A stretch of 64,000 bases of DNA, from the IMG/VR virus record IMGVR_UViG_3300033150_001293; one strand, written 5' to 3'. The notes beneath the pieces were generated by a model, which saw only the letters and a list, made by a program, of their open reading frames with translations, was not told where the DNA came from and did no database searches. The translations under genes and the position numbers were made by a program. This DNA comes from an uncultured virus (IMG/VR IMGVR_UViG_3300033150_001293) (taxonomy: Duplodnaviria; Heunggongvirae; Uroviricota; Caudoviricetes). Positions 845 through 57,573 of the stretch are shown piece after piece; positions within the stretch are counted from its first letter, which is position 1, and the number at the start of each line of letters is the position of its first letter.

Positions 845-881
845 TGGTACCATGCAATTATGCTGAAAAGTGTGTTGCGAG
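845..881 (+). ncRNA. solitary crRNA-like unit (TG-TACCAT -10 box plus repeat 3' half), antisense to the ASCH gene end
   Basis: TGGTACCATGCAATTATGCTGAAAAGTGTGTTGCGAG; 14/15 match to the repeat 3' 15-mer at 867-881. Confidence 0.65.
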
Positions 882-1313
882 CTCTAGGATCTTTTTCTCC
901 AGCCAGTTCGGCACATCCCAAAGCCCCAACGCTCCCTTGCATTGCACGGGCTGTTTCAACTTCCGCACTTTCCCCAATACCAAGCAAAGCGGGCCTTCGG
1001 TGTGTTCGTGTGCCAAGAACTCTTCGACCGTCGGGCCTTCGGGGGCAACCAAACGGTCGAGGGTTAACGAACAGTCATTCAGTCTCCGACGAACTACGTC
1101 GGGGCGTAAACAATTCAGCAACTCCGCCACCGCGACAATCGCTCCTGTCGGATATTCTCGCAGCTCATCGCGGCTCAGGTATTGCGTACCTTTACCCGCA
1201 TGGATTGCAAGCGGTCCACGGTAGGATGGCATGCGTTGCCAGCAGCGGTTCTCTACCCACTTCTCTGTGCCGATCATTGAGGCGTATGGTTGGGATATCG
1301 TGATGGCTTTCAT
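858..1313 (-). CDS. ASCH-domain protein
   Basis: MKAITISQPYASMI..KWVENR..YRGPLAIHAGK..KGALGLW is the ASCH signature; the C-terminus (LATHFSA) is encoded by a CRISPR half-repeat. Confidence 0.85.
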   Translation of the reverse strand: MKAITISQPYASMIGTEKWVENRCWQRMPSYRGPLAIHAGKGTQYLSRDELREYPTGAIVAVAELLNCLRPDVVRRRLNDCSLTLDRLVAPEGPTVEEFLAHEHTEGPLCLVLGKVRKLKQPVQCKGALGLWDVPNWLEKKILELATHFSA

Positions 1314-1681
1314 CCGCTCGGCTCCGGAACACGCTTCTCCCGTGATCTCTTCTCGCGAAGCAGCTTCTTCGCCGCGAGCACGTGCTCGCGGAACGCCTCC
1401 CGCCCCGCCCCGAACGTCGCGTCGTTCGCCACCGCCACCAGGGCCAACAGCACGTGCGACACGGCTTCCGACAGGCACTCCCCGTAGAGGTGCCCGTACA
1501 CGCGGTCGTTGGCGAGGTGCTCGTCCAACTCCTCGGCCGTCGCACGTATCTCCCTCGCCTCCGCGGCCCACGCCGCCTGCTGTTCCACGTCACGCCGGTC
1601 CACAAACTTGGACTCGGCCTTCCGCAGCCGGCGGAGTAGGGCTTTCAGCGCTCGCCGGGCCGTCCGCTCGTCAGGCGTCAT
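1310..1681 (-). CDS. hypothetical protein
   Basis: 123-aa ORF overlapping its neighbours in the minus-strand operon. Confidence 0.6.
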   Translation of the reverse strand: MTPDERTARRALKALLRRLRKAESKFVDRRDVEQQAAWAAEAREIRATAEELDEHLANDRVYGHLYGECLSEAVSHVLLALVAVANDATFGAGREAFREHVLAAKKLLREKRSREKRVPEPSG

Positions 1682-1892
1682 CTCGCTTCCCCCTGTGCGG
1701 ATCGTTGTGGCGGAGCCCCGGCCCGCCCTCGCTCCGCGCGATCGCCTTGTAGATCTCTAGGCGGTGGACCGGTATCTCCTTGGGGGCGTTAATCCCAAGC
1801 CTCACCATGCCGTCCTTGATCTCCATGACAGTAATCGTGATGTCGTCACCGATCACGATCTTCTCGTTCTTTTTCCTCGTGAGCATCAGCAT
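1671..1892 (-). CDS. csrA: carbon storage regulator CsrA/RsmA
   Basis: MLMLTRKKNEKIVIGDDITITVMEIKDGMVRLGINAPKEIPVHRLEIY; GGAGG RBS upstream. Confidence 0.95.
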   Translation of the reverse strand: MLMLTRKKNEKIVIGDDITITVMEIKDGMVRLGINAPKEIPVHRLEIYKAIARSEGGPGLRHNDPHRGKRDDA

Positions 1893-1924
1893 AGCCGTTA
1901 CCTCCATGTTCAGAATCAGTACCC

Positions 1925-4169: not shown

Positions 4170-4226
4170 TTGCTACGTCCACCGAGGAATAGTACAATGC
4201 ATTCGTGCTAAGAAGTGTGTTGCGAG
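4170..4226 (+). ncRNA. promoter plus half-repeat unit (solitary crRNA-like gene)
   Basis: TTGCTA(4170)-17 bp-TACAAT(4193), then GAAGTGTGTTGCGAG at 4212-4226; reads antisense into ORF 4208-4495. Confidence 0.75.
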
Positions 4227-5400: not shown

Positions 5401-5434
5401 GTCCTCGCCCTCCATTTTCGTGGTTTCGCACTCA

Positions 5435-5485
5435 CTCGCAACACATTCCTAAGCCATACGATACCAGATAGACATCGTATGTCAA
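5435..5485 (-). promoter_or_regulatory. TTGACA promoter with a half-repeat in the 5' UTR
   Basis: minus strand TTGACA-16 bp-TATCGT, then GGAATGTGTTGCGAG (5435-5449). Confidence 0.65.
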
Positions 5486-5733: not shown

Positions 5734-5790
5734 TTGCTACGTCTACCGGAGAATGGTGCAATACAATTATACTGAGAAGTATGTTGCGAG
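5734..5790 (+). ncRNA. promoter plus half-repeat unit
   Basis: TTGCTA-17 bp-TGCAAT, then GAAGTATGTTGCGAG at 5776-5790; near-copy of 4170-4226. Confidence 0.7.
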
Positions 5791-8938: not shown

Positions 8939-8953
8939 CGCCTTGGCCTTTCG

Positions 8954-10384: not shown

Positions 10385-10451
10385 CTCGCAACACACTCCG
10401 GAGAAATCTTACATTCCCATATAGTCTAGCACTGTGCTAGCACCCTGTCAA
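10385..10451 (-). promoter_or_regulatory. promoter with a half-repeat overlapping the RBS
   Basis: TTGACA-17 bp-TAGACT; GGAGTGTGTTGCGAG-G-ATG at 10381-10399. Confidence 0.7.
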
Positions 10452-11325: not shown

Positions 11326-11340
11326 CTCGCAACACACTTC
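11326..11340 (-). repeat. dispersed half-repeat immediately followed by a TAGACA-17-TAGAAT promoter
   Basis: CTCGCAACACACTTC exact. Confidence 0.85.
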
Positions 11341-12876: not shown

Positions 12877-13171
12877 TTCGCAACACACTTCTCAGATTTC
12901 AGCCGTTGTCACTAGGTGAGGAGGATACGAAACTGACCGAGAGGCTGCTCTCGCAACACACTTCTCAGACTTCAGCCGTTGTCACGCCCGGATGATGGGC
13001 GTGAGGCGGTCCTATTTCTCGCAACACACTTCTCAGATTTTAGCCGTCGTCACCACACCCGCGCGGTTGACACTGGCCCCATCTCGGCTACTCGCAACAC
13101 ACTTCTCGATTTTTAGCCGTCGTTACTAGCGACAAACGCCGGCGCGATCCCGCACTCTCGCAACACACTTC
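12877..13171 (-). CRISPR. CRISPR array A: 4 full 36-bp repeats plus a leading 15-bp half-repeat, 4 spacers (30-37 bp)
   Basis: repeats at 12877, 12950, 13018, 13091; half-repeat 13157-13171; minus-strand TATAAT at 13181-13186. Confidence 0.95.
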
Positions 13172-13285
13172 ATGCTCCCTATTATAGCAGCCTTGACGGC
13201 CGAGCGTCCATGGATTCCCGAAGGGAACCTAACTCCTACCCCCGCAACGATTTAGGGTTTCCGGCCGAAATTGCCCGGGAGAAGG

Positions 13286-13412
13286 TATAATAGGCATCGT
13301 GGACGCAAGATGACGATCGCCGAACTGCCCGATGGCGCGGCCGGGCTGCGAAAGCAGCATGGGATAGAAGTGTGTTGCGAGGTCGCTCCCTGTCCACCGG
13401 CCGCGTTTTTTT
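13286..13412 (+). promoter_or_regulatory. promoter and structured leader/terminator enclosing a half-repeat
   Basis: TATAAT at 13286; CGCGGCCGG...CCGGCCGCG then a T-run; GCTGC-GAAA-GCAGC hairpin; 15-mer at 13367-13381. Confidence 0.6.
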
Positions 13413-15397: not shown

Positions 15398-15450
15398 CAT
15401 TGGACCTGAGCAAGTACCGTATAATCCGCTAGGCAACAGGAGCCATCACA

Positions 15451-20471: not shown

Positions 20472-20690
20472 GTGAGATACACGCTGTGGTTCCTGTCGTT
20501 GTTCATTGCCAGCATAGCTAGTTTCTGCGGCCTTATTTGCGCCTGGGCAGTAGCGGCCAACCTGGGCGGCTGGTGGTTGGTGGGAGCGTTGGCATGCCCG
20601 AACATTGCTATAATTGTCTTGTTGGGTCACATGCTGCAAGCCCGGCCGAATCGGCGTTGTCCAACGGGTTGCTCCCGTGACAACGGCTGA
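20472..20690 (+). CDS. small membrane protein
   Basis: two hydrophobic segments; stop lies inside the following repeat. Confidence 0.5.
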   Translation: MRYTLWFLSLFIASIASFCGLICAWAVAANLGGWWLVGALACPNIAIIVLLGHMLQARPNRRCPTGCSRDNG

Positions 20691-20712
20691 AATTCGAGAA
20701 GTGTGTTGCGAG
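20677..20712 (+). repeat. solitary full CRISPR repeat upstream of the exonuclease gene
   Basis: GTGACAACGGCTGAAATTCGAGAAGTGTGTTGCGAG. Confidence 0.95.
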
Positions 20713-23325: not shown

Positions 23326-23352
23326 GCTGAGATCTGAGAAGTGTGTTGCGAG
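23326..23352 (+). repeat. partial repeat in the primase leader
   Basis: GCTGAGATCTGAGAAGTGTGTTGCGAG; TATAAT at 23280. Confidence 0.85.
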
Positions 23353-23417: not shown

Positions 23418-24291
23418 ATGAGCAGATCGCAATGGGTCCGCGTCAGTCGACGCGAGCCTTGTCCGGTCTGTCATCCACAAGCCGGACTGGTGCCTTGTAA
23501 CTGGTCCTGAAGGATGTCGTACGGCCGTGATATGCGCCCGCGTCGAGAGCCCCAAGCGCTGCGGCGAGGCTGGCTGGCTCCACAAGCTGCGGGATGACTG
23601 GCGGAATTCGCCCCCGCCCAGACTCGATCCGAAGCCGGAGCGGCCAGAGCCGAAGCGGGACTTCGCGGCGTTCGCGGAGCTGTGCACGACACAGTTGCAC
23701 CGAGACGCCCTGGGGGCGTTTGCCGGGAAGATGGGGCTAAGCGTCGGCTCGCTCGTGCGGCTGGGGCTCGGCTGGTCGCTGGAACATAAGGCGTTCACGT
23801 TCCCAATGCGGCGGGGCTCCGACGGCAAGGTGGTGGGCATCCGGCTGCGTCTACGCAGCGGCCGGAAGCTGGCGGTCAAAGGCGGGAGGGAGGGGCTGTT
23901 TGTGCCGTCGGACACGCCGCGGACTGGCGAGCTGTACCTGCCGGAGGGGCCGACGGACACGGCGGCGCTGCTGGACATCGGCTGCGAGGCGGTAGGGCGG
24001 CCGAGTTGCAACGGCGGCATCCAACACATACTGTCGTTCATCGCGCGGTCGAAGTACGCCGGCATCTGCGTTGTGGCGGACGCGGACGCGCCGGGCCAGC
24101 AGTGGGCGAAGGTGTTGGCGGAAAAGCTGCTACCGTACGCCCCCCGGGTGTGGATCGTCACGCCGCCTGACGGACACAAGGACGTGAGAGACTGGGTGCG
24201 GGGGGGAGCGACAAAACGCAACATTGACGGCGCAGCCGTGCCGCAAGAAACTCGCAACACACTTCTTAGCACAAATGCATTGTACCATTAG
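23418..24291 (+). CDS. Zn-finger/TOPRIM primase-like protein with a +1 frameshift near 23475
   Basis: MSRSQWVRVSRREPCPVCH | HKPDWC; EGPTD, DADAPG, KDVRDW. Confidence 0.8.
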
Positions 24292-25462: not shown

Positions 25463-25498
25463 ATGGCAACGGCTGAAATCCAAGAAGTGTATAGCGAG
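25463..25498 (+). repeat. degenerate full repeat after a terminator
   Basis: ATGGCAACGGCTGAAATCCAAGAAGTGTATAGCGAG. Confidence 0.8.
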
Positions 25499-25982: not shown

Positions 25983-26208
25983 CAACGGGGTCCTCGCAGC
26001 CCCAATGAGAGGCGAGAAGTACCATGACACCCAAACGGCAATCACGGCGCATCCGTCCCCGATCATGTGCAAGCATGACGGGTGACGGTCGCCGGCTGAG
26101 CGGGTCCGGGCAACTCTCGCTGAAGGCTCCTGAAACAGGCCGGATATGCCGTGAGCCCGGCCGACACACTTCGCCTGGTGCGGTGATTCATCGCCGCACC
26201 AGGTTTTT
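25983..26208 (+). ncRNA. predicted tracrRNA of the Cas12f-like system
   Basis: TGG-TATAAT at 25968-25976; anti-repeat CGACACACTTC at 26162-26172; CTCGCA at 25993-25998; terminator hairpin plus T5. Confidence 0.75.
26174..26208 (+). terminator. intrinsic terminator
   Basis: CCTGGTGCGGTGA-TTCA-TCGCCGCACCAGG-TTTTT. Confidence 0.85.
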
Positions 26209-26213
26209 ATTCT

Positions 26214-26382
26214 GGCTGAAATTCAAGAAGTGTGTTGCGAGGCACGGGGCGACCTGGACACGTCACACCTCGTGACGACGGCTGAAATCTGAGAAGTGTG
26301 TTGCGAGACCGAATCTCACCGTAGAGAAGAGCCTCTTTATAGGGTGGCGACAACGGCTGAAATCTGAGAAGTGTGTTGCGAG
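26214..26382 (+). CRISPR. CRISPR array B: 3 repeats (first 5'-truncated), 2 spacers
   Basis: repeats at 26214, 26272, 26347. Confidence 0.92.
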
Positions 26383-26417: not shown

Positions 26418-26960
26418 ATGGCGACTACAAGACAAGCGTTGTTGGAGCTGAAGAGGCTGGCGGCATCGGCCGCCGACAACCTGTACCGCCGCATCGAGCT
26501 GTCGGCGCAGGTGATGAGCGACCTGGACTGGATTGCCCGCGAGCACGGCGGTTCCGACTTGAAGGCCCAAGACACGTTGCAGGATCAGTTCTTCAGGGAC
26601 CTTGGCGGGTTCATCTCCCTCGGCAAGCTGATTGCGATGTTTCGCAACGTGCCGCAGGAGACGTGGGCCGAGCTGAAGTACGACGTGGCGGCCGTCGAAG
26701 TCGTCTACGACGACCAGGCCATCGAGAAGACGGAGAAGGGGACCAAGACCGCCTGGAAGCCCATTGCGGAGGAGAGGGGCGAAAAGATCGAACGCCTTCA
26801 GCGGCAGATGTCTCAGGTCAACGAGCTGGCCGATAAGCAGCGTTCGGAAATCGACGTGCTGCGGGCGAAGGTTGAAGAGCTGACCCGCGAGAACGAGCGT
26901 CTTCGGGGGCGCGTCGAGGAGCTTCAACGACTGCTCGATAGGCAGGTCGTGCAAGTGTGA
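26418..26960 (+). CDS. coiled-coil protein embedded between arrays B and C
   Basis: AAGGAG RBS; C-terminal heptads (LRAKVEELTRENERLRGRVEELQRLL). Confidence 0.8.
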   Translation: MATTRQALLELKRLAASAADNLYRRIELSAQVMSDLDWIAREHGGSDLKAQDTLQDQFFRDLGGFISLGKLIAMFRNVPQETWAELKYDVAAVEVVYDDQAIEKTEKGTKTAWKPIAEERGEKIERLQRQMSQVNELADKQRSEIDVLRAKVEELTRENERLRGRVEELQRLLDRQVVQV

Positions 26961-31488: not shown

Positions 31489-31823
31489 ACACGCTGATCT
31501 TCCTGGCCGCGTGGCTGGCGATGGGCCTGGCTGGCGTCGCCCTTGGGGCGATTGCACGGCGGCGTATCGGCTTGCCGCAGAACGACCGCCTAACGCAGGT
31601 CACAGCTTCGTTTGCTGGGCCGATGGTCCTGATAGGCGGGATCGTGATGCTGATCTACTCTCGCAACATACTTCGCAGCACAACTGCATGGTACCATTCC
31701 TCGGCGGACGCAGGGAGGACGACTCGCAATTTGCCCTGTCGCAAGACGCCCCCCCCGGACAGTAGGGAAGGGTCGGCCGAGCCGACCCTTCCCCCCAAAA
31801 GTACCGTGTCGCCGGAGAAATAG
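31485..31823 (+). CDS. small membrane protein (C-terminus runs through inserted elements)
   Basis: MNTLIFLAAWL.. two TM segments. Confidence 0.5.
   Translation: MNTLIFLAAWLAMGLAGVALGAIARRRIGLPQNDRLTQVTASFAGPMVLIGGIVMLIYSRNILRSTTAWYHSSADAGRTTRNLPCRKTPPPDSREGSAEPTLPPKSTVSPEK
31660..31715 (-). ncRNA. promoter plus half-repeat unit
   Basis: minus strand CGTCCGCCGAGGAATGGTACCATGCAGTTGTGCTGC-GAAGTATGTTGCGAG. Confidence 0.7.
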
Positions 31824-31825: not shown

Positions 31826-32512
31826 ATGAAATGTTCGGCCGTAGTCCTATCCTTCAATCGCGTGCCCAACCTGGGCCGTATCGTCGAGAACCTCCGGCGG
31901 CACGACTGGATAGACGACATCGTGATATGGCACCAAGGCGAGCGGCTGCCGCCCGACTTCGAAGTGTGTTGCGAGCCTATCTGGTATGGCGTCCGCGAAA
32001 TCCACGCGCACAACCGCCTGCGCATGGGGCGATTCGACGCGATGGACCATTGCGCCCACGACGCGGTGCTCGTCCAGGACGACGACACGCTGCCCCGCAA
32101 CCTCGACGCGGCGTGGCAAGCCTGGCGCGAGGAGCAGTCCCGGATCGTTGCCCTGCTCGACCGTGGGCACCTGATGACGGACCGCTGGCGGCACTGGGGC
32201 GATTGCCATGAGGTGCTGCTCGGCTGGGGCGCAATCCTCGATCGGCGGTGGCGGAACGTGTTCAGGCTATGGGAGCACAGCTACGGCGTTGACGAGTTGC
32301 TAGAGCGGAAGGCCGACCGTATCTTCTCAATCCTCCAGCGGCGGCACCACACCGTCCTGCTGGCTGACTACGAGAAGCTACCCGGGGCGGACTCGAACGA
32401 CGCGGCGTGGAAGCAGCCGGACCATGACGCGACGACGAGAGAGGCGAGAGAGCGGTGCCTGAACGGCATATGTGGAATGGGATTGCAGCGCCACGAGTAC
32501 CGGATACGATAA
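31826..32512 (+). CDS. GT-A fold glycosyltransferase
   Basis: SFNRVPNL, IVIW, VQDDD; exact half-repeat at 31961-31975 inside the CDS. Confidence 0.75.
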   Translation: MKCSAVVLSFNRVPNLGRIVENLRRHDWIDDIVIWHQGERLPPDFEVCCEPIWYGVREIHAHNRLRMGRFDAMDHCAHDAVLVQDDDTLPRNLDAAWQAWREEQSRIVALLDRGHLMTDRWRHWGDCHEVLLGWGAILDRRWRNVFRLWEHSYGVDELLERKADRIFSILQRRHHTVLLADYEKLPGADSNDAAWKQPDHDATTREARERCLNGICGMGLQRHEYRIR

Positions 32513-33240: not shown

Positions 33241-33825
33241 ATGCCAGGCTCGCAACACACTTCAACTTCCCATCATAGCGGAAAGACGGTTGCCGACAAG
33301 TCATCCGAGGGAAACGGCGAAGAAATCGACCGGCTGAAATCGGAAATCGCCGCACACAAGGAAAGCCTGAAAACATGCCGCAAGACGATTGCGTCGCTCG
33401 AACAGTCTCTGGAAACGGCCAACGCTGCGATTTGGCGAATCGTAGATGAGGTCTGGTCGGTGCGAACTTGCAAGGAAAACGTCGAGCTGGGCGAGACAGT
33501 CGAGGCATTGGTTGAAAACCACAAAGCGTATCTCGCGTTGATCAGGTCGAGGAGGCAAGAGGCTGCAAGAATATGCAAGGAAGCACGCGAGATTCAATCC
33601 GCGTTGCGGTTCGTCGGGCGTGCTGCCAGTTCAGGGTCGAGCGGTATGATGTTCGGATCAGCAGAGCACTTGGTACTCAGCATCGACGCAATCATGCGCC
33701 AGGCGTGTCGAGATATTGACGGTTTGATTGCCAGTTCGACTGGCGTCGTAAACGGCAGCCAAGATCGCTTGATGCGGGACGCGGTGGCAGAACTCCCGCA
33801 ACACCACTCGCAACACACTTCATAA
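33241..33825 (+). CDS. coiled-coil hypothetical protein bracketed by half-repeats
   Basis: starts and ends with repeat-encoded SQHTS; true start uncertain. Confidence 0.45.
   Translation: MPGSQHTSTSHHSGKTVADKSSEGNGEEIDRLKSEIAAHKESLKTCRKTIASLEQSLETANAAIWRIVDEVWSVRTCKENVELGETVEALVENHKAYLALIRSRRQEAARICKEAREIQSALRFVGRAASSGSSGMMFGSAEHLVLSIDAIMRQACRDIDGLIASSTGVVNGSQDRLMRDAVAELPQHHSQHTS
33249..33300 (-). ncRNA. promoter plus half-repeat unit
   Basis: TTGTCG...TATGAT-GGGAAGTT-GAAGTGTGTTGCGAG; promoter sequence shared with 36942-37000. Confidence 0.65.
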
Positions 33826-33884: not shown

Positions 33885-34799
33885 ATGCGGGCAATAATAA
33901 TATACGACGTGGACGGTTTCGCGTACCACCGGCGGGCGGTAGCATTGAAAAAGTACGCGCCGCCCGACGCGGACGTGCGGCTTGTCAGGACGCCCGACTA
34001 CTGCGGCCCCGGCGACGCGGACGTAGTGGTGCTTTTGGACTATATCTGTCTGGGCATGGTTCAGGGCATGACGCCGGCCCGAGTGCCGCTCGTTTGCACA
34101 TTTTCGGCGGACCACCGGCGGCGGGAGAAACAGTGGCGGCACACCTGCGAGCACGCCGACTGGGTGATAGCGTTGAGCCGGGAGCGGTACGAGGCGGAGC
34201 CGCGATTCGGCAACACCTGCTGCATTGCCAACGGCGTGGACCTCGACGATTTTGGTGCAGACGTACCGATCGAGGGCCGGCCAGACAAGGCGCTGTGGAT
34301 CGGCCAGGACGGGCGAGGGGACAACAAGGGGCTGATCTCCGTCCTGTCGCCGCTGCGCAAGCTGGCCGAGCGGAGCGGGTTCGCCTGCGACTTCCGGGCG
34401 GTGGGCCCTCGCGGATTTTCTACGGATCGCCTGCGGAGTTGGTATAATAGCGGGAGTTACATCGTGTGCGCTAGCCGCTCGGAGGCGACGGCAAACACGG
34501 TGATGGAGGCAGCCGCTTGCGGCTGCGTGCCGGTGAGCACGCCGGTTGGTACCCTGACGGATTGGGGCCAGGATGGCGAGAACTGCGTGCTCGTGAAGGA
34601 TCGGTCGCCGGAGGCGTTCCTGAAAGGACTGCAACGGGCGAAGGACGCACGCCTCCGGCTGGCCGCCGGCACGATGGAGGCCGTGGCGAGGTATGACTAC
34701 CGCCGCGTGGCGGAGCTGTACTGGGAGGATGTAATTCGGCCAATCGCCGAAGGGCGCCGGCCGGAACAATTCTGCTACCTCTCGCAACACACTTCCTGA
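33885..34799 (+). CDS. GT-B (GT4-like) glycosyltransferase
   Basis: ANGVD, KG, SRSEATANTVMEAAACG. Confidence 0.85.
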   Translation: MRAIIIYDVDGFAYHRRAVALKKYAPPDADVRLVRTPDYCGPGDADVVVLLDYICLGMVQGMTPARVPLVCTFSADHRRREKQWRHTCEHADWVIALSRERYEAEPRFGNTCCIANGVDLDDFGADVPIEGRPDKALWIGQDGRGDNKGLISVLSPLRKLAERSGFACDFRAVGPRGFSTDRLRSWYNSGSYIVCASRSEATANTVMEAAACGCVPVSTPVGTLTDWGQDGENCVLVKDRSPEAFLKGLQRAKDARLRLAAGTMEAVARYDYRRVAELYWEDVIRPIAEGRRPEQFCYLSQHTS

Positions 34800-34938
34800 C
34801 TATATTATACTATATCCACCGAGGAAATTTTGTAGGAGAAAGAGCCGTGGAGCCAGAATTGAGTTCGGAAGCCTGAAACCACCTTAAGAACTCGGCCGTT
34901 AAGGCTGCTATAATGGGGAGTATGAAGTGTGTTGCGAG
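34781..34938. ncRNA. divergent pair of TATAAT plus half-repeat units
   Basis: 15-mers at 34781-34795 (-) and 34924-34938 (+); the + promoter resembles the array A leader (CGGCCGTYAAGGCTGCTATAATRGGGAGYATGAAG). Confidence 0.7.
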
Positions 34939-35220
34939 AGTAAAGACAAGACCTCGGACGCAACCACAGTGATAAGCGGGTGCGCCTTGTTGGCGTGGCG
35001 AGTGTTCGTAGTGTTGCCTCTGTGGTATGTGTTGCTGGCGTCGCTGCTTTTGGCTACAGATGCCGAAGGGTGGCAATGGGTTCTGTACATCCTGTATGTT
35101 CCCGCGGGGGTATTCGGCTCCATAATGGTGTATGGATTCAATCTCCTACGCAAGGCAAATAGCATAAGCCCTTCCGAGAAGTGTATTGCGAACGAGTGAG
35201 CGGGCGAAAGGAGAAGCGGT

Positions 35221-36941: not shown

Positions 36942-37081
36942 CTCGCAACACACTTCAGCATCTTATCATAGCGAAAAAGACGGTCGAGGACAAGTCATCC
37001 GAGAAGTGTGTTGCGAGCGGGCGAGCTCGTCGAAGGTCACGCGGCGTGGCAACGGCTAAAATTCGAGAAATGTGTTGCGAG
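36942..37081. CRISPR. minus-strand promoter/half-repeat unit back-to-back with a plus-strand mini-array (half-repeat, 28-bp spacer, degenerate repeat)
   Basis: 36942-36956 (-), 37003-37017 (+), 37046-37081 (+). Confidence 0.8.
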
Positions 37082-39348: not shown

Positions 39349-40386
39349 ATGGCGAAGATCATAGTCGACCCTTATGTCCCCGGCAACGACAACCGGAAAT
39401 GCCGCAAGATGCGCCGGCTGGTTTACCTGGCGTGGATCGCACGCGACCTGGGGCACGAGGTGGCCGTCCACTACGACCGGGACGAGATCGACGCCCTACG
39501 GCAGCGCACCGCCTACAATGGCAGGACGGACTTCAGCTACCTCGACCTGCTCGGATCGTTCCGCAAGTGTGTTGCGAGCGAGGACGCCGACCTGCTGATC
39601 TGCTCGGAGGAGACGGCCCTGGGGCAGCAGCGGCCGGACTGCAAAGTGGCGGCATGGCGGTCGGTACTCGGTGGCGGACACAGGGCCGTCGAGCACCACG
39701 ACAAGTTTGACCTGCTCTGCGGCTATGCGTTTTCGCAGCAGGACTGGACGAGGAAGACAACCATAGAGGGAAAGCTGCGGCACGATACGCCCGTGCGGAA
39801 TAGGCTGGGCGACAAGTGGTTTTCAGTCCCGTGGCTGCCCTTTGAGTGCACGCTGCATCAGCTTCACAAGGACGGCCTATGGAAGGCGTATCTGCGGGAC
39901 GACCTGGACGCGATCCGTGAGCGATATGGGAGCGCCAAGAAGAGACGAGTGTTCGGGTTCGCGGGATACCCATGGCCATGGCGGACGCGGATTGCCGGCA
40001 TTTTCGACGGCGACGAGCGGTTCGTCTTCAGGTGGGCGGACTGCGCCGAGAAGGCCATGCCGCCCGCCGAATATCTGCGGTGGCTCAGCGAGTGCGAGGT
40101 GTCCATGTGCCTGCCGGGCGACACCTGGAAATGCAGCCGGTTCGCCGAGTCGGTGATGATGGGCGTCCCCGTAGTGCATCCCCGCGGCGTGGTCGACCTG
40201 ACGCCGCCGTTGTCTAGCCTGAACGCGATACTGGTTGGGGAGTGGGAGGAGTTGGCAGACATGCGGGTGGCTGATCTCGACCTGATCGTTGCCAACGCTG
40301 ACAAGGCGTACCGCGAGGGATGGGGACTTCGCGGGCAGTTCTCGCAACACACTTCTATGACTGCATTATACCATAAAAGAGCCTAG
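39349..40386 (+). CDS. exostosin-like/GT-B glycosyltransferase
   Basis: EYLRWLSECEVSMCLPG...SRFAESVMMGVPV. Confidence 0.65.
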   Translation: MAKIIVDPYVPGNDNRKCRKMRRLVYLAWIARDLGHEVAVHYDRDEIDALRQRTAYNGRTDFSYLDLLGSFRKCVASEDADLLICSEETALGQQRPDCKVAAWRSVLGGGHRAVEHHDKFDLLCGYAFSQQDWTRKTTIEGKLRHDTPVRNRLGDKWFSVPWLPFECTLHQLHKDGLWKAYLRDDLDAIRERYGSAKKRRVFGFAGYPWPWRTRIAGIFDGDERFVFRWADCAEKAMPPAEYLRWLSECEVSMCLPGDTWKCSRFAESVMMGVPVVHPRGVVDLTPPLSSLNAILVGEWEELADMRVADLDLIVANADKAYREGWGLRGQFSQHTSMTALYHKRA

Positions 40387-40566
40387 CGGGTGGCCACCGC
40401 GTGCCGATGCCAAAGTACGACCGGCACATGGACTTTGCGGCCCCGCAATCGCGGTAGCTCGCCGTAGACTTCCTCGGGGAGCAGGAGCGGCTCGACTACG
40501 TGTCCCGGCAGAAGCCGAAGACGAGCCGCTTTATGGTATAATGCAGTCATAGAAGTGTGTTGCGAG
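40341..40566. repeat. perfect 37-bp inverted repeat made of two outward-facing TATAAT plus half-repeat units
   Basis: TTTATGGTATAATGCAGTCATAGAAGTGTGTTGCGAG at 40530-40566 and its reverse complement at 40341-40377. Confidence 0.92.
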
Positions 40567-42814: not shown

Positions 42815-43827
42815 TGCCGAGCGTCCTTGTGCGTTACGACGTGGAAAACTGGGCCTTTCACCGCCGTGCCCTCGGCCTGCAACGGTATCGCCGGCCCGGC
42901 GACCAAGTGACGATCGCCAGCGACTACGCCTACGGCATGGGCGTAGCCGACGGCGAGTACGACGCCGTGCTCCTGTGCGACATGACATCCAGCTTCCCCG
43001 GTTCGCGGCCCCACTGCCGGGCCGGGAGAATAGTGCGGCTCGTCGGGTCGCACGGGTGGTTGTACCCCGAATACGATCCCGACGACTGGCGGACGAAGGG
43101 AGTGAACGGCCGCAACTCCAACCAAGCCGCGTCGATCGTGGAAGACTGCGACACGGTGGTCGTCTATAGCGCGGAGCAAAAGCGGTTCTTCGACTCGATC
43201 CACAGCGACGTGCGGCTCATGCCGTACTCGATCGACACAAATGTGTTCAGACCGCGTAGGATAACGGCCGAATTCGAGAAGTGTGTACGGAGGCTCCGCG
43301 TGGGTTGGTGCGGCCAGCTTGGCGGCGGCGAAGGGAGCTTCAAGGGATTCGTCGAGGTCATGGTGCCCGTGATCGCCAGGCTCGGCGAGCAATTCGAGTG
43401 GTCGATCAATCACCGGGACTTCCGTACGGCGCTGAGCGGGCCGGACCTGGCCAAGTGGTATCAGTCGCTCGACGTGTTCCTTTGCACCAGCGTGGCGGAG
43501 GGGGGGCCGCAGACGGTATTCGAGGCCGCGGCGTGCGGATGCGTGCCCCTGTCGACGGCGGTCGGGCAGGTGGCGGACTGGCGGTGGATGCGCGACAAGA
43601 GCCTGACGACGCCCCCGCCGGCGAACGCGGAGGACGCGGCTCGCGTGGTAGGCTGGTTCGTCGAGAGCCTTCGCTACATGGACGCCAACAGGCAGATGCG
43701 CGACCGGTGGAGCCAGGACGCCGTCCGCGCCGTCCGACGCGACTACGACGCGGCGGAGTTAGTGCCCCAGCACCTGGCAATTATCACGGGGCCCGCTTGC
43801 TCGCTTGCAACACACTTCTCAGCATAA
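42814..43827 (+). CDS. GT4-like glycosyltransferase
   Basis: FKG, EGGPQTVFEAAACG; ends in repeat-encoded LATHFSA. Confidence 0.85.
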   Translation: MPSVLVRYDVENWAFHRRALGLQRYRRPGDQVTIASDYAYGMGVADGEYDAVLLCDMTSSFPGSRPHCRAGRIVRLVGSHGWLYPEYDPDDWRTKGVNGRNSNQAASIVEDCDTVVVYSAEQKRFFDSIHSDVRLMPYSIDTNVFRPRRITAEFEKCVRRLRVGWCGQLGGGEGSFKGFVEVMVPVIARLGEQFEWSINHRDFRTALSGPDLAKWYQSLDVFLCTSVAEGGPQTVFEAAACGCVPLSTAVGQVADWRWMRDKSLTTPPPANAEDAARVVGWFVESLRYMDANRQMRDRWSQDAVRAVRRDYDAAELVPQHLAIITGPACSLATHFSA

Positions 43828-44135: not shown

Positions 44136-45083
44136 ATGAACGTCGTCTTTCTGATTAGTCGCCGATTACACGAGATGAAGGTCGATAGACACAGACCTTC
44201 CCTGGCTGCGGCGCTGACTCGTCGTGATGACTGCCGCGTCATCACGACCGGCCACGGCTGGCCGGGCTACGACAGCGGCAGGACGGTCTCGCAGAACTTG
44301 GCAAACATGGGGCTTTCGCCCGACGTGCTATGGGTATACCAGACGGCGGCCGACCATATTCACGAGGGTGTCCGCTCGGTCGAGGCCGTGAGGTGTCTCT
44401 TGATATACGACGCCTACGAAACCAAAAAGCGGAAGGCCGAGGTGGAGGCCGTCGAGCCGCAGGTCATCGTTCACACGCACGCCAACGACGCCAAACGCCT
44501 GGCCAAGATCGCCCCTCGCGCCAGGCGCGTCCACGTGCCGTTCGGCGTCGACAAGGCCACGTTCTACCGGCCGGACTACGGCGAGCGGCCGATCGACTGC
44601 CTGGTGGTCGGCCAGACGGACCCGGACACGTACCCCCTGCGTGCCCGGTGGCGGAGGCTCGTGGAGTCCGGGGCGATCCCCGGCGAGGTCCGGCGGATGC
44701 CGTCCTACCGGCTGGAGCCCGCCCAGTGCGTCCGCCAGTACGTGGAGTGGGGCGAGCACATGCGGCGGGCGAAGATCGTGCTCACCGGCGGCTCGAAGTA
44801 CCGCTACGCGCTCCAGGTCTACTACGCCGCGGCGATGTGCGGCTGTGTGGTGGTCGCGGACATGCCGGACGACTTGGTCTACCGCGAGACGCTGGGCGTG
44901 CACCAAGTGGCAGTCGACGCGGGAGCCATTCACGATTCGCTGGCGAACACCGTCAAGCGACTTCTCCGAGATGACCTGGCGATCCGCCAGCGCGGCCTCG
45001 CGGCCCGCAACACATGCCTGGAACTCTACACGACGGATATCGTCGCGGAGCGGTTCGTCGAGGAGTGCAGTGACAACGGCTGA
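44136..45083 (+). CDS. CgeB-like glycosyltransferase
   Basis: YPLRARW, RAKIVL, KYRYAL..YAAAMCG; stop lies within the repeat at 45070. Confidence 0.7.
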   Translation: MNVVFLISRRLHEMKVDRHRPSLAAALTRRDDCRVITTGHGWPGYDSGRTVSQNLANMGLSPDVLWVYQTAADHIHEGVRSVEAVRCLLIYDAYETKKRKAEVEAVEPQVIVHTHANDAKRLAKIAPRARRVHVPFGVDKATFYRPDYGERPIDCLVVGQTDPDTYPLRARWRRLVESGAIPGEVRRMPSYRLEPAQCVRQYVEWGEHMRRAKIVLTGGSKYRYALQVYYAAAMCGCVVVADMPDDLVYRETLGVHQVAVDAGAIHDSLANTVKRLLRDDLAIRQRGLAARNTCLELYTTDIVAERFVEECSDNG

Positions 45084-45105
45084 AAGTCAAGAAGTGTGTT
45101 GCGAG
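45070..45105 (+). repeat. solitary full repeat between convergent GT genes
   Basis: GTGACAACGGCTGAAAGTCAAGAAGTGTGTTGCGAG. Confidence 0.95.
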
Positions 45106-45107
45106 GC

Positions 45108-46389: not shown

Positions 46390-47103
46390 TTATCGCTTCC
46401 GCGTCTCGCAACACACTTCTCGATTTTCAGCTAACTCCCGGCAGTCCTCCACGAACTCACCCTCGTGCCTGTACTGCATCCACTTTCGGTTGCCCCGCCT
46501 GGTGTACACCGCCGATACCACCCCAACGTGTCGCACCAGCGACGGGCTGTGATGCGCCCACCGCAGCCCCCGATCCTTGCACCAGCAGGCCACGTGGTAG
46601 TCCGTCTTTGTGCGACCGTCCGGCCTCGGGAACAGCTTCGCCAGATCCTCAGCCCTACCCCTCATTATAGCAATCGCTACCGCCCCGTACGCTTTGCGGG
46701 GCATCGACTTCTCCGGCAGGCAGAACCAGCCCCGCGACGGACCAAAGTTCTTTGCTATTTGTTCAGAGGTGTAGAGCGAGACCACCCCGGTGTCCGGCCA
46801 GGGCCACTGGGCCAGCTCCGCCTCCAACCACTCGCGGCAGCCACGGGCCACCAAGCAGTCGTCCTGGAATACGGCCACGGCGTCGCACGGCGATTCTAGG
46901 CACCCTCGCAGGGCGCGCTGGAACTGGGGCCACGGGCCGACGCTCCGCTCCGCGTAGTCCATCGGCCAGCGGCAGTCGGGCGTGCCCGGGTCCGCGTAGA
47001 CCACGCCGTCGGGCCAGCCGGCGGCGGCGATGCTCTCGATCGCATCGGCTAGATAGAATGTCCCTTTGCGAGGGGCCGCTGTCACGGCGGCGGACCAGTT
47101 CAC
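46390..47103 (-). CDS. GT-A-like glycosyltransferase
   Basis: TAAPRK..YL, VFQDD, PSLVRHVG. Confidence 0.65.
   Translation of the reverse strand: MNWSAAVTAAPRKGTFYLADAIESIAAAGWPDGVVYADPGTPDCRWPMDYAERSVGPWPQFQRALRGCLESPCDAVAVFQDDCLVARGCREWLEAELAQWPWPDTGVVSLYTSEQIAKNFGPSRGWFCLPEKSMPRKAYGAVAIAIMRGRAEDLAKLFPRPDGRTKTDYHVACWCKDRGLRWAHHSPSLVRHVGVVSAVYTRRGNRKWMQYRHEGEFVEDCRELAENREVCCETRKR
46405..46431 (-). repeat. 27-bp partial repeat at a gene junction
   Basis: GCTGAAAATCGAGAAGTGTGTTGCGAG on the minus strand. Confidence 0.9.
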
Positions 47104-56679: not shown

Positions 56680-56683
56680 CGGC

Positions 56684-57495
56684 TCACTCCTCGTTGCGTG
56701 GGCGCAGCAGGCCGCGCTGGCGCATCAGGTCCTTGATGGACGCAGCCCGCTTGTCCGCCGCCTCGGTCTCCCGGCGCATCTTCTGATCGGCCGGCCGCAT
56801 CCAGCAGTCCAACTGGTAGTCGGTCATCTTGCGAACCTCGTCCGGCGTGATGCCGTGCTCCATCTTCATGTAGCGAAACACCCGGGGCCAGGGGATTTCC
56901 CACGGCGTCAGCCCGCCGCCTTCCCCGTCTCCGTCGACGGCGGGCCAGTCCCTTTTCCCAGCAGGTCCGTTCCGCTCGCCGCGTTGACCGCCTGGTGGAA
57001 CGCCATGATTGCCGCGTTTTCCGCCTCGGCCGACAGTTGCTCCATGCTCTCGGCCTTCTCGATGTTGCGGCGGATCATGTCGGCGATGTGCTCGGCGAAC
57101 AAATCCGAGACTTCGCTCTCCGTCAAGAACGGCAGGTCCTCCGCCTTCTCGCCGTCCTTGGGAGGCCACTTCAGCGTGCGGGTGCCATACCAGATCGTCC
57201 CGGCCCGCGTGCCGATCCAGTCCAGCACCTCCGACGGCAGCTTGTCCTGGTTCTCGGTGTCCTTGTCAACGCAAAACTTGAGAAAATCCTTCCGCTCCTC
57301 GGGGCGTTCCGCGAAGTAGGCGGACCCCGCCTTCGACTCGTACAGGTCCATGGCCTTCGGATGGCGGCGGATGTACTCCGTCTCCGCCTCGGGGTAGAAC
57401 TCCTGTATTCGCCCGTAGACGATCACTTCCTTGCCGCCGTAGGTGAACGGCATGGGCGTGCCGAACGCCCTCGCTGTCGGTCCGAGCATCGTCAT
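56684..57495 (-). CDS. tail assembly chaperone G (56908-57495) and -1 frameshift product GT (to 56684)
   Basis: G GGA AAA slippery heptamer at 56953-56959; open -1 frame GKRDWP...PDEVRKMTDYQL; directly upstream of the tape measure gene. Confidence 0.8.
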
Positions 57496-57522
57496 TCCCT
57501 CCTCAACCGACGGGAAATCCGG

Positions 57523-57573
57523 TTGTATAAGGGCGTTTCATGTGGTATATAGTACCGAGAAGTGTGTTGCGAG
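57523..57573 (+). ncRNA. promoter plus half-repeat unit abutting the tail tube stop codon (antisense)
   Basis: TTGTAT-17 bp-TATATA; GAAGTGTGTTGCGAG at 57559-57573. Confidence 0.7.

What the first reader, a model, noticed from the sequence alone, without database searches (positions are those of the whole stretch)
845..57573. About 25 dispersed repeat copies forming a genome-wide network of solitary crRNA-like genes
Seen: the repeat 3' 15-mer (GAAGTGTGTTGCGAG, mostly 0-2 mismatches) or a longer piece recurs outside the arrays. Copies start at 867, 4212, 5435, 5776, 10385, 11326, 13367, 20677, 23326, 24251, 25463, 31660, 31961, 33249, 33807, 34781, 34924, 35178, 36942, 37003, 37046, 39564, 40341, 40552, 43804, 45070, 46405 and 57559. 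At least 12 lie 7-14 bp downstream of a TATAAT/TACAAT-type -10 box, so transcription would start just before the handle and give a crRNA needing no 5' processing. Array A begins with the same architecture. Inference: the phage turns arbitrary pieces of its own genome into guides for dCas12f. Alternatives are decoy RNAs (like Racr anti-CRISPR RNAs) or a DNA operator. I know of no described system distributed like this.
Basis: partly seen in the sequence, partly recalled or inferred. Interest (0 to 1): 0.95.

Follow-up and report, generated by a model that had tools for sequence, protein, structure and literature searches.

The report
Scattered guide-RNA handles across a phage
A roughly 77-kb phage that carries its own non-cutting Cas12f-like protein and four CRISPR arrays also has about 30 lone copies of the last 15 bases of its CRISPR repeat spread over its genome, half of them placed right behind their own promoters, which looks like a built-in network of minimal guide-RNA genes whose targets and purpose remain untested.

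Summary

- **Promoters.** 15 of 28 solitary copies sit 5-14 nt behind a strong -10 box, against 1.8% of random positions.
- **Orientation rule.** All 12 copies antisense to the local genes have such a promoter. Only 3 of 16 sense copies do. The motif is therefore always placed to be transcribed in the handle sense, which argues against a DNA operator.
- **Array A** starts with the same promoter-plus-handle unit.
- **Relatives.** Solitary copies carry each phage's own handle variant. One relative has arrays made of bare 12-nt handles.
- **Effector.** The adjacent 427-aa protein has a Cas12f fold and lacks RuvC motifs I and III.
- **Targets.** No "guide" or array spacer matches a second site in the 76.8-kb phage.

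The copies are best read as handle-tagged RNAs for the phage's own dead Cas12f. Guide function and self-locus binding are inferred, not shown. No RNA data exist. I rate it a new variant of crRNA-like regulators. This scan noted similar units before in another phage.

The parts
12877..13210 (-). Array A: promoter (13210-13181), then a bare 15-mer as first unit, 4 spacers and 4 further repeats; runs into the Dam-type methylase gene 11945-12865
26206..26382 (+). Array B, 3 repeats; the last repeat is 35 nt before the start codon at 26418
26418..26960 (+). Conserved 180-aa coiled-coil protein, found next to the Cas12f-like gene in 27 of 38 related loci; function unknown
26964..27875 (+). Array C, 14 units. 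The first is a bare 15-mer right after the stop codon of the preceding gene. The last is degenerate (2 mismatches) and lies 25 nt before the Cas12f-like start codon
27901..29184 (+). Cas12f-like protein P0001, 427 aa, probably nuclease-dead (dCas12f-like)
29157..29477 (+). ORF2, 106 aa, four-cysteine zinc-ribbon-like protein. Its start overlaps the end of the Cas12f-like gene in another frame and its stop lies inside the first repeat of array D. tblastn hits in 30 of 38 related loci
29287..29327 (+). Hairpin inside ORF2 (arms 29287-29294 and 29320-29327) with compensatory changes among 14 loci. The 3' arm is complementary to the end of the handle, so it is a candidate part of a scaffold or tracrRNA
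29464..31145 (+). Array D, 24 repeats; the last repeat (1 mismatch) abuts or overlaps the start of a Holliday-junction-resolvase-like gene
867..881 (+). Solitary handle, own promoter (-10 ends 13 nt upstream), antisense; lies in the last codons of gene 858-1313(-)
4212..4226 (+). Solitary handle, own promoter (two-hexamer hit 4170-4198), antisense; lies in the last codons of gene 4208-4495(-)
5435..5449 (-). Solitary handle, own promoter (5485-5458), sense; 5' leader of gene 5107-5415(-)
5776..5790 (+). Solitary handle, own promoter, antisense; following sequence runs into the 3' end of gene 5819-6238(-); divergent partner of 5435
10385..10399 (-). Solitary handle, sense, promoter-like site 10451-10423; start codon of gene 9913-10383(-) is 1 nt after it
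11326..11340 (-). Bare solitary handle, sense; the sequence right after it is itself a promoter-like site (11322-11294)
13367..13381 (+). Bare solitary handle, sense, 46 nt before start codon 13428; divergent partner of the array A leader
20677..20712 (+). Solitary full 36-nt repeat, sense; in-frame ATG 8 nt after it; strong -10 site about 60 nt upstream (20606)
23326..23352 (+). Solitary partial repeat, sense; strong -10 site 52 nt upstream (23277)
24251..24265 (-). Solitary handle, own promoter (extended -10, 13 nt upstream), antisense; in the 3' end of primase-like gene 23527-24291(+)
25463..25498 (+). Solitary full repeat (15-mer with 2 mismatches), sense; 21 nt before ATG 25520
31660..31674 (-). 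Solitary handle, own promoter (extended -10), antisense; inside weakly called gene 31485-31823(+)
31961..31975 (+). Bare solitary handle inside glycosyltransferase gene 31826-32512(+), sense
33249..33263 (-). Solitary handle, own promoter (33299-33272), antisense; following sequence runs into the 3' end of gene 32512-33237(+)
33807..33821 (-). Solitary handle, own extended -10 promoter 8 nt upstream, antisense; last codons of ORF 33241-33825(+)
34781..34795 (-). Solitary handle, own promoter 8 nt upstream, antisense; last codons of glycosyltransferase gene 33885-34799(+)
34924..34938 (+). Solitary handle, own extended -10 promoter 9 nt upstream, sense; about 55 nt alike to the array A leader; divergent partner of 34781
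35178..35192 (+). Bare solitary handle (2 mismatches), sense; 28 nt before ATG 35221
36942..36956 (-). Solitary handle, own promoter (36993-36965), antisense; forms a perfect 15-nt inverted pair with 37003, 46 nt apart
37003..37017 (+). Bare solitary handle, sense
37046..37081 (+). Solitary full repeat (1 mismatch in the 15-mer), sense; in-frame ATG 15 nt after it (methyltransferase gene)
39564..39578 (+). Bare solitary handle (1 mismatch) inside gene 39349-40386(+), sense
40341..40355 (-). Solitary handle, own extended -10 promoter 9 nt upstream, antisense; 3' end of gene 39349-40386(+)
40552..40566 (+). Solitary handle, same promoter as 40341, sense; 69 nt before ATG 40636; divergent partner of 40341
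43804..43818 (-). Solitary handle (1 mismatch), own promoter 13 nt upstream, antisense; last codons of glycosyltransferase gene 42811-43827(+)
45070..45105 (+). Solitary full repeat at the end of the rightward gene block; following sequence is antisense to the 3' end of the convergent gene 45108-46124(-)
46405..46419 (-). Solitary partial repeat, sense, at the junction of genes 46390-47103(-) and 46124-46414(-)
57559..57573 (+). Solitary handle, own -10-like box, antisense, in the tail-gene block; following sequence starts exactly at the stop codon of gene 57574-57993(-)

Best explanation
The solitary copies are transcribed parts of the phage's own dead-Cas12f CRISPR system. They are not chance matches and not a protein operator.

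The last 15 nt of the 36-nt repeat is the minimal handle of the guide RNA. About 16 copies are minimal guide-RNA genes that need no processing: a -10 or extended -10 promoter is placed so that the transcript starts at, or 1-6 nt before, the handle, and whatever phage sequence follows becomes the 3' part of the RNA. The other copies lie in the sense direction inside operons, often in 5' leaders just before start codons. They are made by read-through, and six of them keep part or all of the repeat's 5' half.

These RNAs would be bound by the dCas12f-like protein, probably together with a scaffold RNA that I could not identify. Because the only match of each adjacent sequence in the 76.8-kb phage is its own locus, I think the complexes most likely act there. 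They would bind the phage's own DNA, including sister copies, at about 30 gene junctions and modulate transcription, as an RNA-guided counterpart of phage stoperators.

What the sequence shows directly: the motif, its promoters, its orientation rule, its co-variation with the arrays, and the dead-nuclease features. What is inferred: transcription, loading, guide use and binding to the unit's own locus.

My odds are about 0.75 that the copies are handle-bearing RNAs tied to dCas12f, and about 0.4 for the whole chain including action at their own loci.
For: 1. Enrichment: 74 matches against 0.22 expected.
2. Promoter linkage at fixed distance: 15 of 28 solitary copies against 1.77% of random positions. 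Alignments show a conserved extended -10 box 8-9 nt (11 units aligned) or 13 nt (6 units) upstream. Five units were found independently by the two-hexamer scan.
3. Orientation rule: 12 of 12 antisense copies have their own promoter against 3 of 16 sense copies (Fisher p 1.5e-5). Every copy can therefore be transcribed in the handle sense.
4. A true array (A) starts with exactly such a promoter-plus-handle unit followed by a spacer and normal repeats. A solitary unit (34924) shares about 55 nt with that leader.
5. In relatives of the Cas12f-like gene, solitary copies carry that phage's own handle variant: L008 3 copies, L017 at least 3, L019 1 copy behind a -35/-10 pair, L001 1 copy. L034 has arrays made of bare 12-nt handles only.
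6. The effector: phmmer to AsCas12f gave 1.8e-9. The AF2 model had pLDDT 88.5. Foldseek gave AsCas12f 5.5e-19 and dCas12f 9n9c 1.5e-13. The RuvC-I Asp position is variable (L/E/R/M/G), and all 47 aligned homologues end before any zinc ribbon or RuvC-III.
7. The repeat has no internal structure in 16 variants, as in scaffold-dependent systems.
8. The handle read backwards is translated in three different frames at gene ends (my reading), so the constraint is on the nucleotides, not on a peptide.
9. Precedent from papers: repeat-like units upstream of cas12a in about half of V-A loci, implicated in autoregulation (10.1101/2023.03.03.530964, passages). One dCas12f needs only a single 5'-G as target-adjacent motif (PMC13472631, passage). 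The handle here ends in G, so self-locus binding is not excluded.
Against: - No RNA data: no RNA run holds this phage, so transcription, 5' ends and loading are unproven.
- The target-adjacent motif of this protein is unknown. In ordinary CRISPR systems the repeat end is not a valid motif, which would forbid binding at the unit's own locus.
- No terminator follows the units. Terminator-like sites are not enriched: 11 and 10 found against 11.2 and 12.1 expected. Discrete small RNAs are therefore not evident.
- A scaffold or tracrRNA was not identified. The candidate pairing of the ORF2 region with the handle shows no covariation and has 4 uncompensated changes.
- Two copies lie deep inside genes without promoter or repeat 5' half (31961, 39564), and it is unclear how they would yield an RNA 5' end.
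- For sense transcription, an R-loop made by an antisense unit would be met from the side far from the motif. In Cas9 and Cas12a work (recalled, no call) that is the weaker roadblock direction.
- Gene calls behind the sense/antisense labels are my own heuristic, checked by Pfam and PHROG hits for only part of the genes.
Confidence: 0.4

Rival explanations
1. Docking tag without guide function. The handle only recruits the dead Cas12f, or its RNA partner, to the 5' end of phage transcripts. It would stabilise them, mask or expose the nearby ribosome-binding site, or titrate the protein as a sponge. The adjacent sequence is irrelevant as a guide.
For: - At least 8 of 16 sense copies and 3 of 4 array-terminal repeats lie 1-70 nt before a predicted start codon, including the Cas12f-like gene itself.
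- Many of these are followed by a recurring short purine-rich extension that no array spacer starts with (0 of 42 spacers).
- No second target site exists in the phage.
- An earlier scan note (e1-5844618) reached the same docking idea on another phage. That is a lead only.
Against: - It does not explain the 12 antisense units, which tag RNAs with no coding potential opposite real genes. For example, gene 858-1313 has a PHROG hit of 5e-26.
- Array A shows that a promoter-plus-handle unit is used to start a real spacer.
Confidence: 0.25
2. Guides against DNA outside the phage. As with TnpB, whose guide is whatever flanks the element, pieces of the phage's own genome serve as guides against closely related co-infecting phages that carry the same sequence behind a valid motif, or against host sites. 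This would silence competitors or host genes.
For: - There is no second site inside the phage, so any trans target must be elsewhere.
- Array spacers also have no match in the phage, in 38 related loci or in INPHARED, so the system as a whole looks outward.
- Viral mini-arrays aimed at related viruses are known (cited in 10.1101/2023.03.03.530964, passage).
Against: - No target was found anywhere.
- The effector is nuclease-dead, so exclusion would rest on binding alone.
- Guides that lie antisense to the last codons of ordinary genes are odd choices for silencing.
- The host is unknown: no relative of the protein and no copy of the repeat in 185,579 species genomes.
Confidence: 0.15
3. Mobile or recombination-spread promoter cassette. 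Promoter-plus-handle modules multiplied within the genome by recombination, and the handle hitch-hikes without a present function.
For: - The units fall into sub-families with long shared upstream sequence: six units of one type; 13157/34924; 40341/40552; 33249/36942.
- Six pairs are divergent and inverted.
- Several unrelated genes end with the same handle-encoded tail followed at once by a stop codon (my reading), as expected after insertion at gene ends.
- One promoter of the six-member type (10758) has lost most of the handle.
- Earlier scan note e1-5824728 favoured this reading for another phage.
Against: - The 15-mer is perfect in 19 of 28 copies, while the flanks differ between sub-families.
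- It is kept in copies without any promoter.
- It tracks the array repeat in relatives.
- In IMG/VR the exact 15-mer occurs in 41 contigs. One is this phage; the other 40 are single copies without the promoter context, about the number expected by chance by my estimate. The cassette therefore does not roam among unrelated phages.
Confidence: 0.1
4. RNA decoys (Racr-like). The units soak up a host Cas12f that uses the same repeat.
For: Solitary repeat units with promoters in viral genomes are the hallmark of Racrs (PMC10651486, abstract). Phage crRNA-like RNAs that hijack host Cas proteins are described (10.1101/2024.10.29.618823, abstract).
Against: - The phage encodes its own matching protein and 42 spacers.
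- All 48 homologues found have the truncated length.
- None was found in 185,579 species genomes by the pattern-based scan.
- The repeat pattern has 0 hits there.
- The units keep only the 3' 15 nt, not a whole repeat.
Confidence: 0.05
5. DNA operator or stoperator for a protein repressor. The 15-mer is bound as double-stranded DNA.
For: About 30 asymmetric sites, 25 of 28 at gene junctions, resemble the spread of stoperators (PMC9283540, abstract). Six inverted pairs flank promoters.
Against: - The sites occur in both orientations relative to transcription. Stoperators have one; this point is recalled, not read here.
- Orientation is tied to a private promoter at a fixed distance.
- The same 15 nt is the end of 46 array repeats and co-varies with them in relatives.
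- No repressor-type DNA-binding family was found among 64 ORFs by Pfam.
Confidence: 0.05

Closest known systems
crRNA-like regulatory RNAs from stand-alone repeats and mini-arrays (CreA/CreR, crlRNAs; repeat-like units upstream of cas12a). Shmakov et al. 2023, 10.1101/2023.03.03.530964 (abstract and passages read)
   Same: - A repeat-derived handle outside the array gives an RNA that loads on the system's own effector for regulation instead of cleavage.
- One such unit sits directly upstream of the effector gene here too, in the window and in every relative with enough upstream sequence.
   Different: - Known cases are one or two units inside the CRISPR-cas locus of a cell, with a partial match to a nearby promoter.
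- Here there are about 30 units spread over a whole phage genome, half with private promoters.
- The effector is constitutively dead.
- No separate target match was found.
Nuclease-dead Cas12f and TnpB-derived RNA-guided transcription factors (dCas12f-sigmaE, TldR). Hoffmann et al. 2026, PMC13472631 (passages read); Wiegand et al. 2023, 10.1101/2023.11.30.569447 (search listing only)
   Same: - Cas12f fold with a C-terminal truncation that removes part of RuvC.
- The paper also mentions dCas12f clusters next to CRISPR arrays that may repress transcription.
   Different: - No sigma factor was found among 64 ORFs.
- The system is phage-borne.
- It has two other conserved partner genes.
- It has large arrays and many dispersed handles rather than one or a few single guides.
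Viral solitary repeat units: RNA anti-CRISPRs (Racr, PMC10651486, abstract) and phage Cracr RNAs (10.1101/2024.10.29.618823, abstract)
   Same: Promoter-driven repeat-derived units in a viral genome.
   Different: - Those mimic the host's repeat and exploit the host's Cas proteins.
- Here the repeat belongs to the phage's own arrays and protein.
- No host counterpart was found.
Stoperators of Cluster A mycobacteriophages (PMC9283540, abstract)
   Same: Tens of copies of one short asymmetric motif at gene junctions across a phage genome. In the known system they stop transcription elongation.
   Different: - Stoperators are bound by a protein repressor as DNA.
- The motif here is tied to RNA production and to a CRISPR repeat, and it occurs in both orientations.
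TnpB omega-RNA logic (recalled knowledge, no call)
   Same: The guide is simply whatever DNA follows the conserved RNA end.
   Different: No transposase was found among 64 ORFs, there are no transposon ends, and the effector is dead.

Membership tests
Type V-F CRISPR-Cas (Cas12f) | Effector with the Cas12f fold | tested here: met
   Foldseek top hits AsCas12f, E 5.5e-19, TM 0.58-0.62; phmmer 1.8e-9
Type V-F CRISPR-Cas (Cas12f) | Intact RuvC triad and zinc-ribbon (TNB) domain, giving DNA cleavage | tested here: not met
   The motif I Asp position is variable in 47 homologues and followed by Pro in 40 of 47. The motif II Glu is kept in 44 of 47. The protein ends before any zinc ribbon or motif III. 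The numbering of the AsCas12f catalytic residues is recalled.
Type V-F CRISPR-Cas (Cas12f) | Adjacent CRISPR array | tested here: met
   Arrays C and D flank the gene, and arrays with related repeats occur in most related loci that extend far enough beyond the gene
Type V-F CRISPR-Cas (Cas12f) | tracrRNA with an anti-repeat | tested here: inconclusive
   The repeat is unstructured. There is a covarying hairpin and two handle-complementary motifs inside ORF2, but the handle pairing shows no covariation and relative L034 lacks ORF2.
dCas12f / TldR-type RNA-guided transcription factors | Nuclease-dead TnpB/Cas12f-fold protein with a C-terminal truncation | tested here: met
dCas12f / TldR-type RNA-guided transcription factors | Guide matching a promoter or other regulatory site of a target gene | tested here: inconclusive
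   No second site for 28 adjacent sequences or 42 spacers in 76.8 kb. One unit (11326) is followed by a promoter-like site at its own locus.
dCas12f / TldR-type RNA-guided transcription factors | Association with a sigma-E gene (dCas12f-sigmaE subgroup only) | tested here: not met
   No sigma-factor family among 64 ORFs or 27 ORFs in PHROGs
crRNA-like regulatory RNAs (stand-alone repeats, mini-arrays) | Repeat-like sequence outside the array, kept in related loci | tested here: met
   28 copies here; solitary copies with each phage's own handle variant in L001, L008, L017, L019, L034
crRNA-like regulatory RNAs (stand-alone repeats, mini-arrays) | Spacer-like part partly complementary to a promoter of a cas or cargo gene | tested here: not met
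   No partial match beyond chance in the phage
RNA anti-CRISPRs (Racr) | Mimics the repeat of a host CRISPR-Cas system | tested here: not met
   Repeat pattern 0 hits and protein 0 hits in 185,579 species genomes. The host itself is unknown, so this is a limited test.
Stoperators | Many copies of one asymmetric site at gene junctions | tested here: met
   25 of 28 copies at junctions by my gene calls
Stoperators | Single orientation relative to transcription; bound by a protein repressor as DNA | tested here: not met
   16 sense and 12 antisense copies. Protein binding is not testable with these tools.

The most novel reading that the evidence does not exclude
An RNA-guided stoperator network. 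Each of about 30 units encodes, next to its handle, the guide for its own site, so a single dead Cas12f can be posted at gene junctions all over the phage genome and on every sister or closely related genome in the cell. This would set the timing of phage transcription, insulate operons, or give immunity against superinfecting relatives. The phage would re-wire the network simply by moving a 40-nt promoter-plus-handle module.
Probability: 0.25. Interest if true: 0.9.

Novelty: new variant of a known kind. Interest (0 to 1): 0.78.

Why it matters
- **Wider role for crRNA-like regulators.** If the units are loaded guides, this phage uses a CRISPR-derived, non-cutting effector as a genome-wide regulator of itself, with dozens of one-promoter, one-handle guide genes. 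That would extend crRNA-like regulation from single autoregulatory units in cellular loci to a whole viral transcription programme.
- **Minimal handle.** It would show that a 15-nt, unstructured handle is enough to tag an RNA for a Cas12f-type protein.
- **Small natural parts.** It would supply a promoter-plus-handle cassette of about 40 nt for multiplexed dCas12f targeting.
- **Not a one-off.** At least 48 metagenomic relatives share a conserved three-gene module. Earlier notes of this scan describe similar units in another phage.
- **If the guide idea fails,** the strict rule that every copy is placed to be transcribed still needs an RNA-level explanation.

Tried and rejected
- **RNA evidence.** No RNA holder is listed for a 10-kb stretch with 14 units; only one DNA run with a 0.05 share.
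- **Whole genome.** Not held. The near-identical record G001 was used instead.
- **Protospacers.**
  - 42 array spacers against the window.
  - 171 spacer-like intervals from the window and loci against all loci.
  - Array D against INPHARED in distant mode: only 4 weak chance-like hits.
  - Spacers and solitary "guides" against the extra 12.8 kb: best was 17 of 18 nt, not at the seed end.
  - Two spacers scanned exactly in IMG/VR: 0 hits. A third scan was not run.
- **Second sites of the 28 adjacent sequences**: nothing beyond 11-16-nt chance matches.
- **tracrRNA.** Duplex scans were dominated by the trivial antisense of the arrays. The alifold pairing lacked covariation.
- **Rfam and tRNA scans.** 0 families at the gathering score and 0 tRNAs.
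- **Terminators behind the units.** Not enriched.
- **Structure.** The single-sequence AF2 model was useless, pLDDT 34.5. It was replaced by the alignment-based model.
- **ORF2 against PDB and Pfam.** Nothing significant, so its kinship to the Cas12f zinc ribbon is only a guess.
- **Complex prediction, Cas12f-like protein with ORF2.** No verdict, score 0.01. This is no evidence either way.
- **ESM Atlas for the 180-aa neighbour.** No hit of 0.9 or more.
- **Ideas considered and dropped.**
  - Invertible promoter switch (inverted 15-mers flanking promoters): the best pairs are symmetric, so inversion would change nothing, and no recombinase family was found among 64 ORFs.
  - IS200/IS605-type element ends: no transposase was found.
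  - The array repeat as its own promoter: its -10-like part lies only 4 nt from the handle, not at the 8-9-nt spacing of the units.

Full report
**Observation**

The 15-mer named in the finding occurs 74 times in the 64-kb window with up to 2 mismatches. Shuffles gave 0.22 on average and at most 3. 46 copies form four arrays of a 36-nt repeat (21 nt plus the 15-mer): A on the minus strand, and B, C and D on the plus strand. 28 copies are solitary. A near-identical record of the same phage (G001) has every copy offset by +12,801. It extends the genome 12.8 kb to the left and adds four more copies, two of them a two-unit mini-array followed by a hairpin. The phage therefore holds about 32 solitary copies in 76.8 kb.

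**The element is a phage**

Pfam and PHROG scans find a tape-measure protein, RecT, a PD-(D/E)XK nuclease, a helicase, a primase-like protein, a Holliday-junction resolvase, a ParB-like protein, three DNA methylases and more than ten glycosyltransferases. There are no tRNAs and no Rfam families at the gathering score. Genes run leftward in 1-13 kb, rightward in 13.4-45 kb, and leftward again in 45-64 kb. These are my codon-usage gene calls, supported by composition skew.

**The effector**

- The 427-aa ORF between arrays C and D has no Pfam hit.
- It matches AsCas12f by sequence (1.8e-9, residues 212-408).
- An AF2 model built on 47 homologues (pLDDT 88.5) matches AsCas12f by fold (Foldseek 5.5e-19, TM about 0.6). 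The dCas12f of the sigma-E system scores 1.5e-13.
- The position aligned to the RuvC-I aspartate is variable (L/E/R/M/G) and followed by a conserved proline. The RuvC-II glutamate is kept in 44 of 47. All 47 proteins stop 5-15 residues after a conserved Glu-Trp pair, before any zinc ribbon or RuvC-III motif.
- I conclude it is very probably nuclease-dead. That matches the description of dCas12f as C-terminally truncated (PMC13472631, passage).
- No Cas1, Cas2 or Cas4 family was found among 64 ORFs.

**Anatomy of the solitary copies**

- *Promoter-led units.* 15 of 28 copies have a -10 score of 6 or more with the hexamer ending 5-14 nt upstream, against 1.77% of random positions (p 1.6e-19).
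  - Alignments show two spacings. In eleven units aligned together (array A's leader among them) an extended -10 box ends 8-9 nt before the 15-mer in most. In six units a shared module of about 45 nt carries -35-like and extended -10 boxes ending 13 nt before it.
  - The tool's two-hexamer scan independently hit five of them.
  - With the usual spacing of about 7 nt between box and start site (established knowledge), transcripts would begin 0-3 or about 6 nt before the handle.
- *Read-through copies with repeat 5' half.* Six sense copies keep part or all of the repeat's 5' 21 nt: 20698, 23338, 25484, 37067, 45091 and 46405. Three of them (20698, 23338, 25484) have a strong -10 site 50-120 nt upstream. 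They would need processing like array repeats.
- *Bare copies.* Six copies have neither a promoter nor the repeat's 5' half: 11326, 13367, 31961, 35178, 37003 and 39564. Two of these lie deep inside genes.

**The orientation rule**

By my gene calls, 12 copies are antisense to the surrounding genes and 16 are sense. All 12 antisense copies have their own promoter; only 3 of 16 sense copies reach the same score, and 10385 has a promoter-like site 23 nt upstream (Fisher p 1.5e-5). Every copy is thus placed so that it can be transcribed in the handle sense. A duplex-DNA operator would not need this.

- 10 of the 12 antisense units sit at or within about 30 nt of the stop codon of the upstream gene, so the RNA after the handle is antisense to that gene's last codons. 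The exceptions are 31660 and 36942.
- At least 8 sense copies and 3 of 4 array-terminal repeats lie 1-70 nt before a start codon, including that of the Cas12f-like gene.
- Six minus/plus pairs are divergent, 46-330 nt apart: 5435/5776, array A leader/13367, 31660/31961, 34781/34924, 36942/37003 and 40341/40552.
- Read backwards, the handle is translated in three different frames at gene ends. Four unrelated ORFs share the same five-residue handle-encoded stretch at or near their C-terminus: in three the stop codon follows it at once, and in the fourth (at 40341) nine more residues follow. Two more share another handle-encoded tail (my reading). This points to constraint on the nucleotides and to insertion or spread of the modules at gene ends.

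**Link to the CRISPR system**

- Array A begins with a promoter-plus-bare-handle unit, followed by a spacer and normal repeats. Unit 34924 shares about 55 nt with that leader.
- The protein has 48 metagenomic homologues at 40-77% identity. One IMG/VR locus and 37 metagenome loci were fetched.
- Wherever flanks are long enough, these loci carry arrays with related repeats whose last 8-10 nt are the most conserved part.
- Their solitary copies carry their own variant of the handle, not this phage's: L008, 3 copies; L017, several; L001, 1; L019, 1 copy behind a -35/17-nt/-10 promoter. The 29%-identical L034 has runs of bare 12-nt handles 26-50 nt apart.
- The handle, not the whole repeat, is therefore the unit that matters, and the solitary copies evolve in step with the arrays.
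- The repeat has no conserved internal pairing in 16 variants, as in scaffold-dependent systems. I could not pin down the scaffold. The region after the gene (ORF2) holds a hairpin with compensatory changes and two short handle-complementary motifs. The predicted pairing to the handle shows no covariation and has four uncompensated changes.

**Targets**

- None of the 42 array spacers and none of the 28 sequences following a solitary handle has a second site in the window or in the extra 12.8 kb.
- Spacers also find nothing in 38 related loci or in INPHARED. Two spacers scanned exactly against IMG/VR gave nothing.
- The host is unknown. No relative of the protein and no copy of the repeat was found in one genome each of 185,579 species.
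- No RNA run holds the phage.

**Reading**

The pattern is best explained by RNA: handle-tagged transcripts for the phage's own dead Cas12f. Whether the adjacent sequence guides the complex is open. If it does, the only phage target is the unit's own locus. That is possible only if the handle's 3' end is tolerated as the target-adjacent motif. One dCas12f needs just a 5'-G (PMC13472631, passage), and the handle here ends in G. This is an analogy, not a test.

Self-locus binding would give an RNA-guided analogue of stoperators (PMC9283540, abstract). It would also explain the unit in front of the effector gene as autoregulation, as proposed for repeat-like units upstream of cas12a (10.1101/2023.03.03.530964, passages).

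The rivals and my odds for them: a docking tag without guide use (0.25), guides aimed at relatives or the host (0.15), a spreading promoter cassette (0.10), Racr-like decoys (0.05) and a DNA operator (0.05).

In IMG/VR the exact 15-mer occurs in 41 contigs. One is this phage. The other 40 are single copies without the promoter context, about the number expected by chance by my estimate.

**Novelty**

Four literature searches found crRNA-like regulators, Racrs, phage Cracr RNAs and dCas12f/TldR factors. None described a phage with its own dead Cas12f and a genome-wide set of promoter-led handles. Two earlier notes of this scan (e1-5824728, e1-5844618; AI notes, unchecked) describe promoter-plus-13-nt-handle units in another, huge phage with a dead Cas12f. 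Its protein shares no detectable words with this one. The phenomenon therefore seems recurrent. I class it as a new variant of a known kind, with high interest.

Noticed in passing
window 29157-29477 (+): Small ORF (106 aa, four conserved cysteines). Its start codon lies inside the last codons of the Cas12f-like gene in another frame, and its stop lies inside the first repeat of array D. tblastn finds it in 30 of 38 related loci, including relatives of about 30% identity. It has no significant PDB or Pfam match. It may be a split-off zinc ribbon of the ancestral Cas12f, but that is a guess.
   Followed up: partly
window 26418-26960 (+): A 180-aa protein with a C-terminal coiled coil lies directly upstream of the Cas12f-like gene in 27 of 38 related loci, with an array on either side here. 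The family is unknown. Together with ORF2 it forms a conserved three-gene module.
   Followed up: partly
window 29287-29327 (+): Hairpin inside the ORF2 coding sequence with compensatory base changes among 14 loci (at one pair, C-G in 6 and A-U in 5). Its 3' arm is complementary to the end of the crRNA handle.
   Followed up: partly
window arrays A-D (12877-13171, 26227-31145): Spacer lengths vary from 18 to 39 nt, and one 22-nt spacer occurs in both array C and array D with one difference. Relatives show the same irregular periods. This is unusual for spacers added by Cas1-Cas2, and no adaptation genes are present.
   Followed up: partly
window 10758-10790 (+): A seventh copy of the six-member promoter module in which most of the handle is missing and only its last few bases remain. 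This looks like a decayed unit.
   Followed up: no
window 14330-18711 (+): Four consecutive genes made of diverged 63-bp (21-aa) tandem units with weak leucine-rich-repeat hits.
   Followed up: no
window 31826-49538: More than ten glycosyltransferase genes plus methyltransferases in one phage. Most of the solitary handles are concentrated in this block.
   Followed up: no
window 7191-10054 (-): Two trypsin-like peptidase genes, one with a collagen-like repeat.
   Followed up: no
window 63361-63719: A 54-bp tandem repeat (6.6 copies, 85% matches) inside the last gene of the window, which has a weak carbohydrate-binding-module hit.
   Followed up: no
L082 (G001:C1) 2534-2592 (-): In the part of the phage left of the window, two handles 29 nt apart each have the same 10-nt lead-in, followed by a stem-loop. 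This is a third repeat variant, shared with the lead-in of the six-member promoter module.
   Followed up: no
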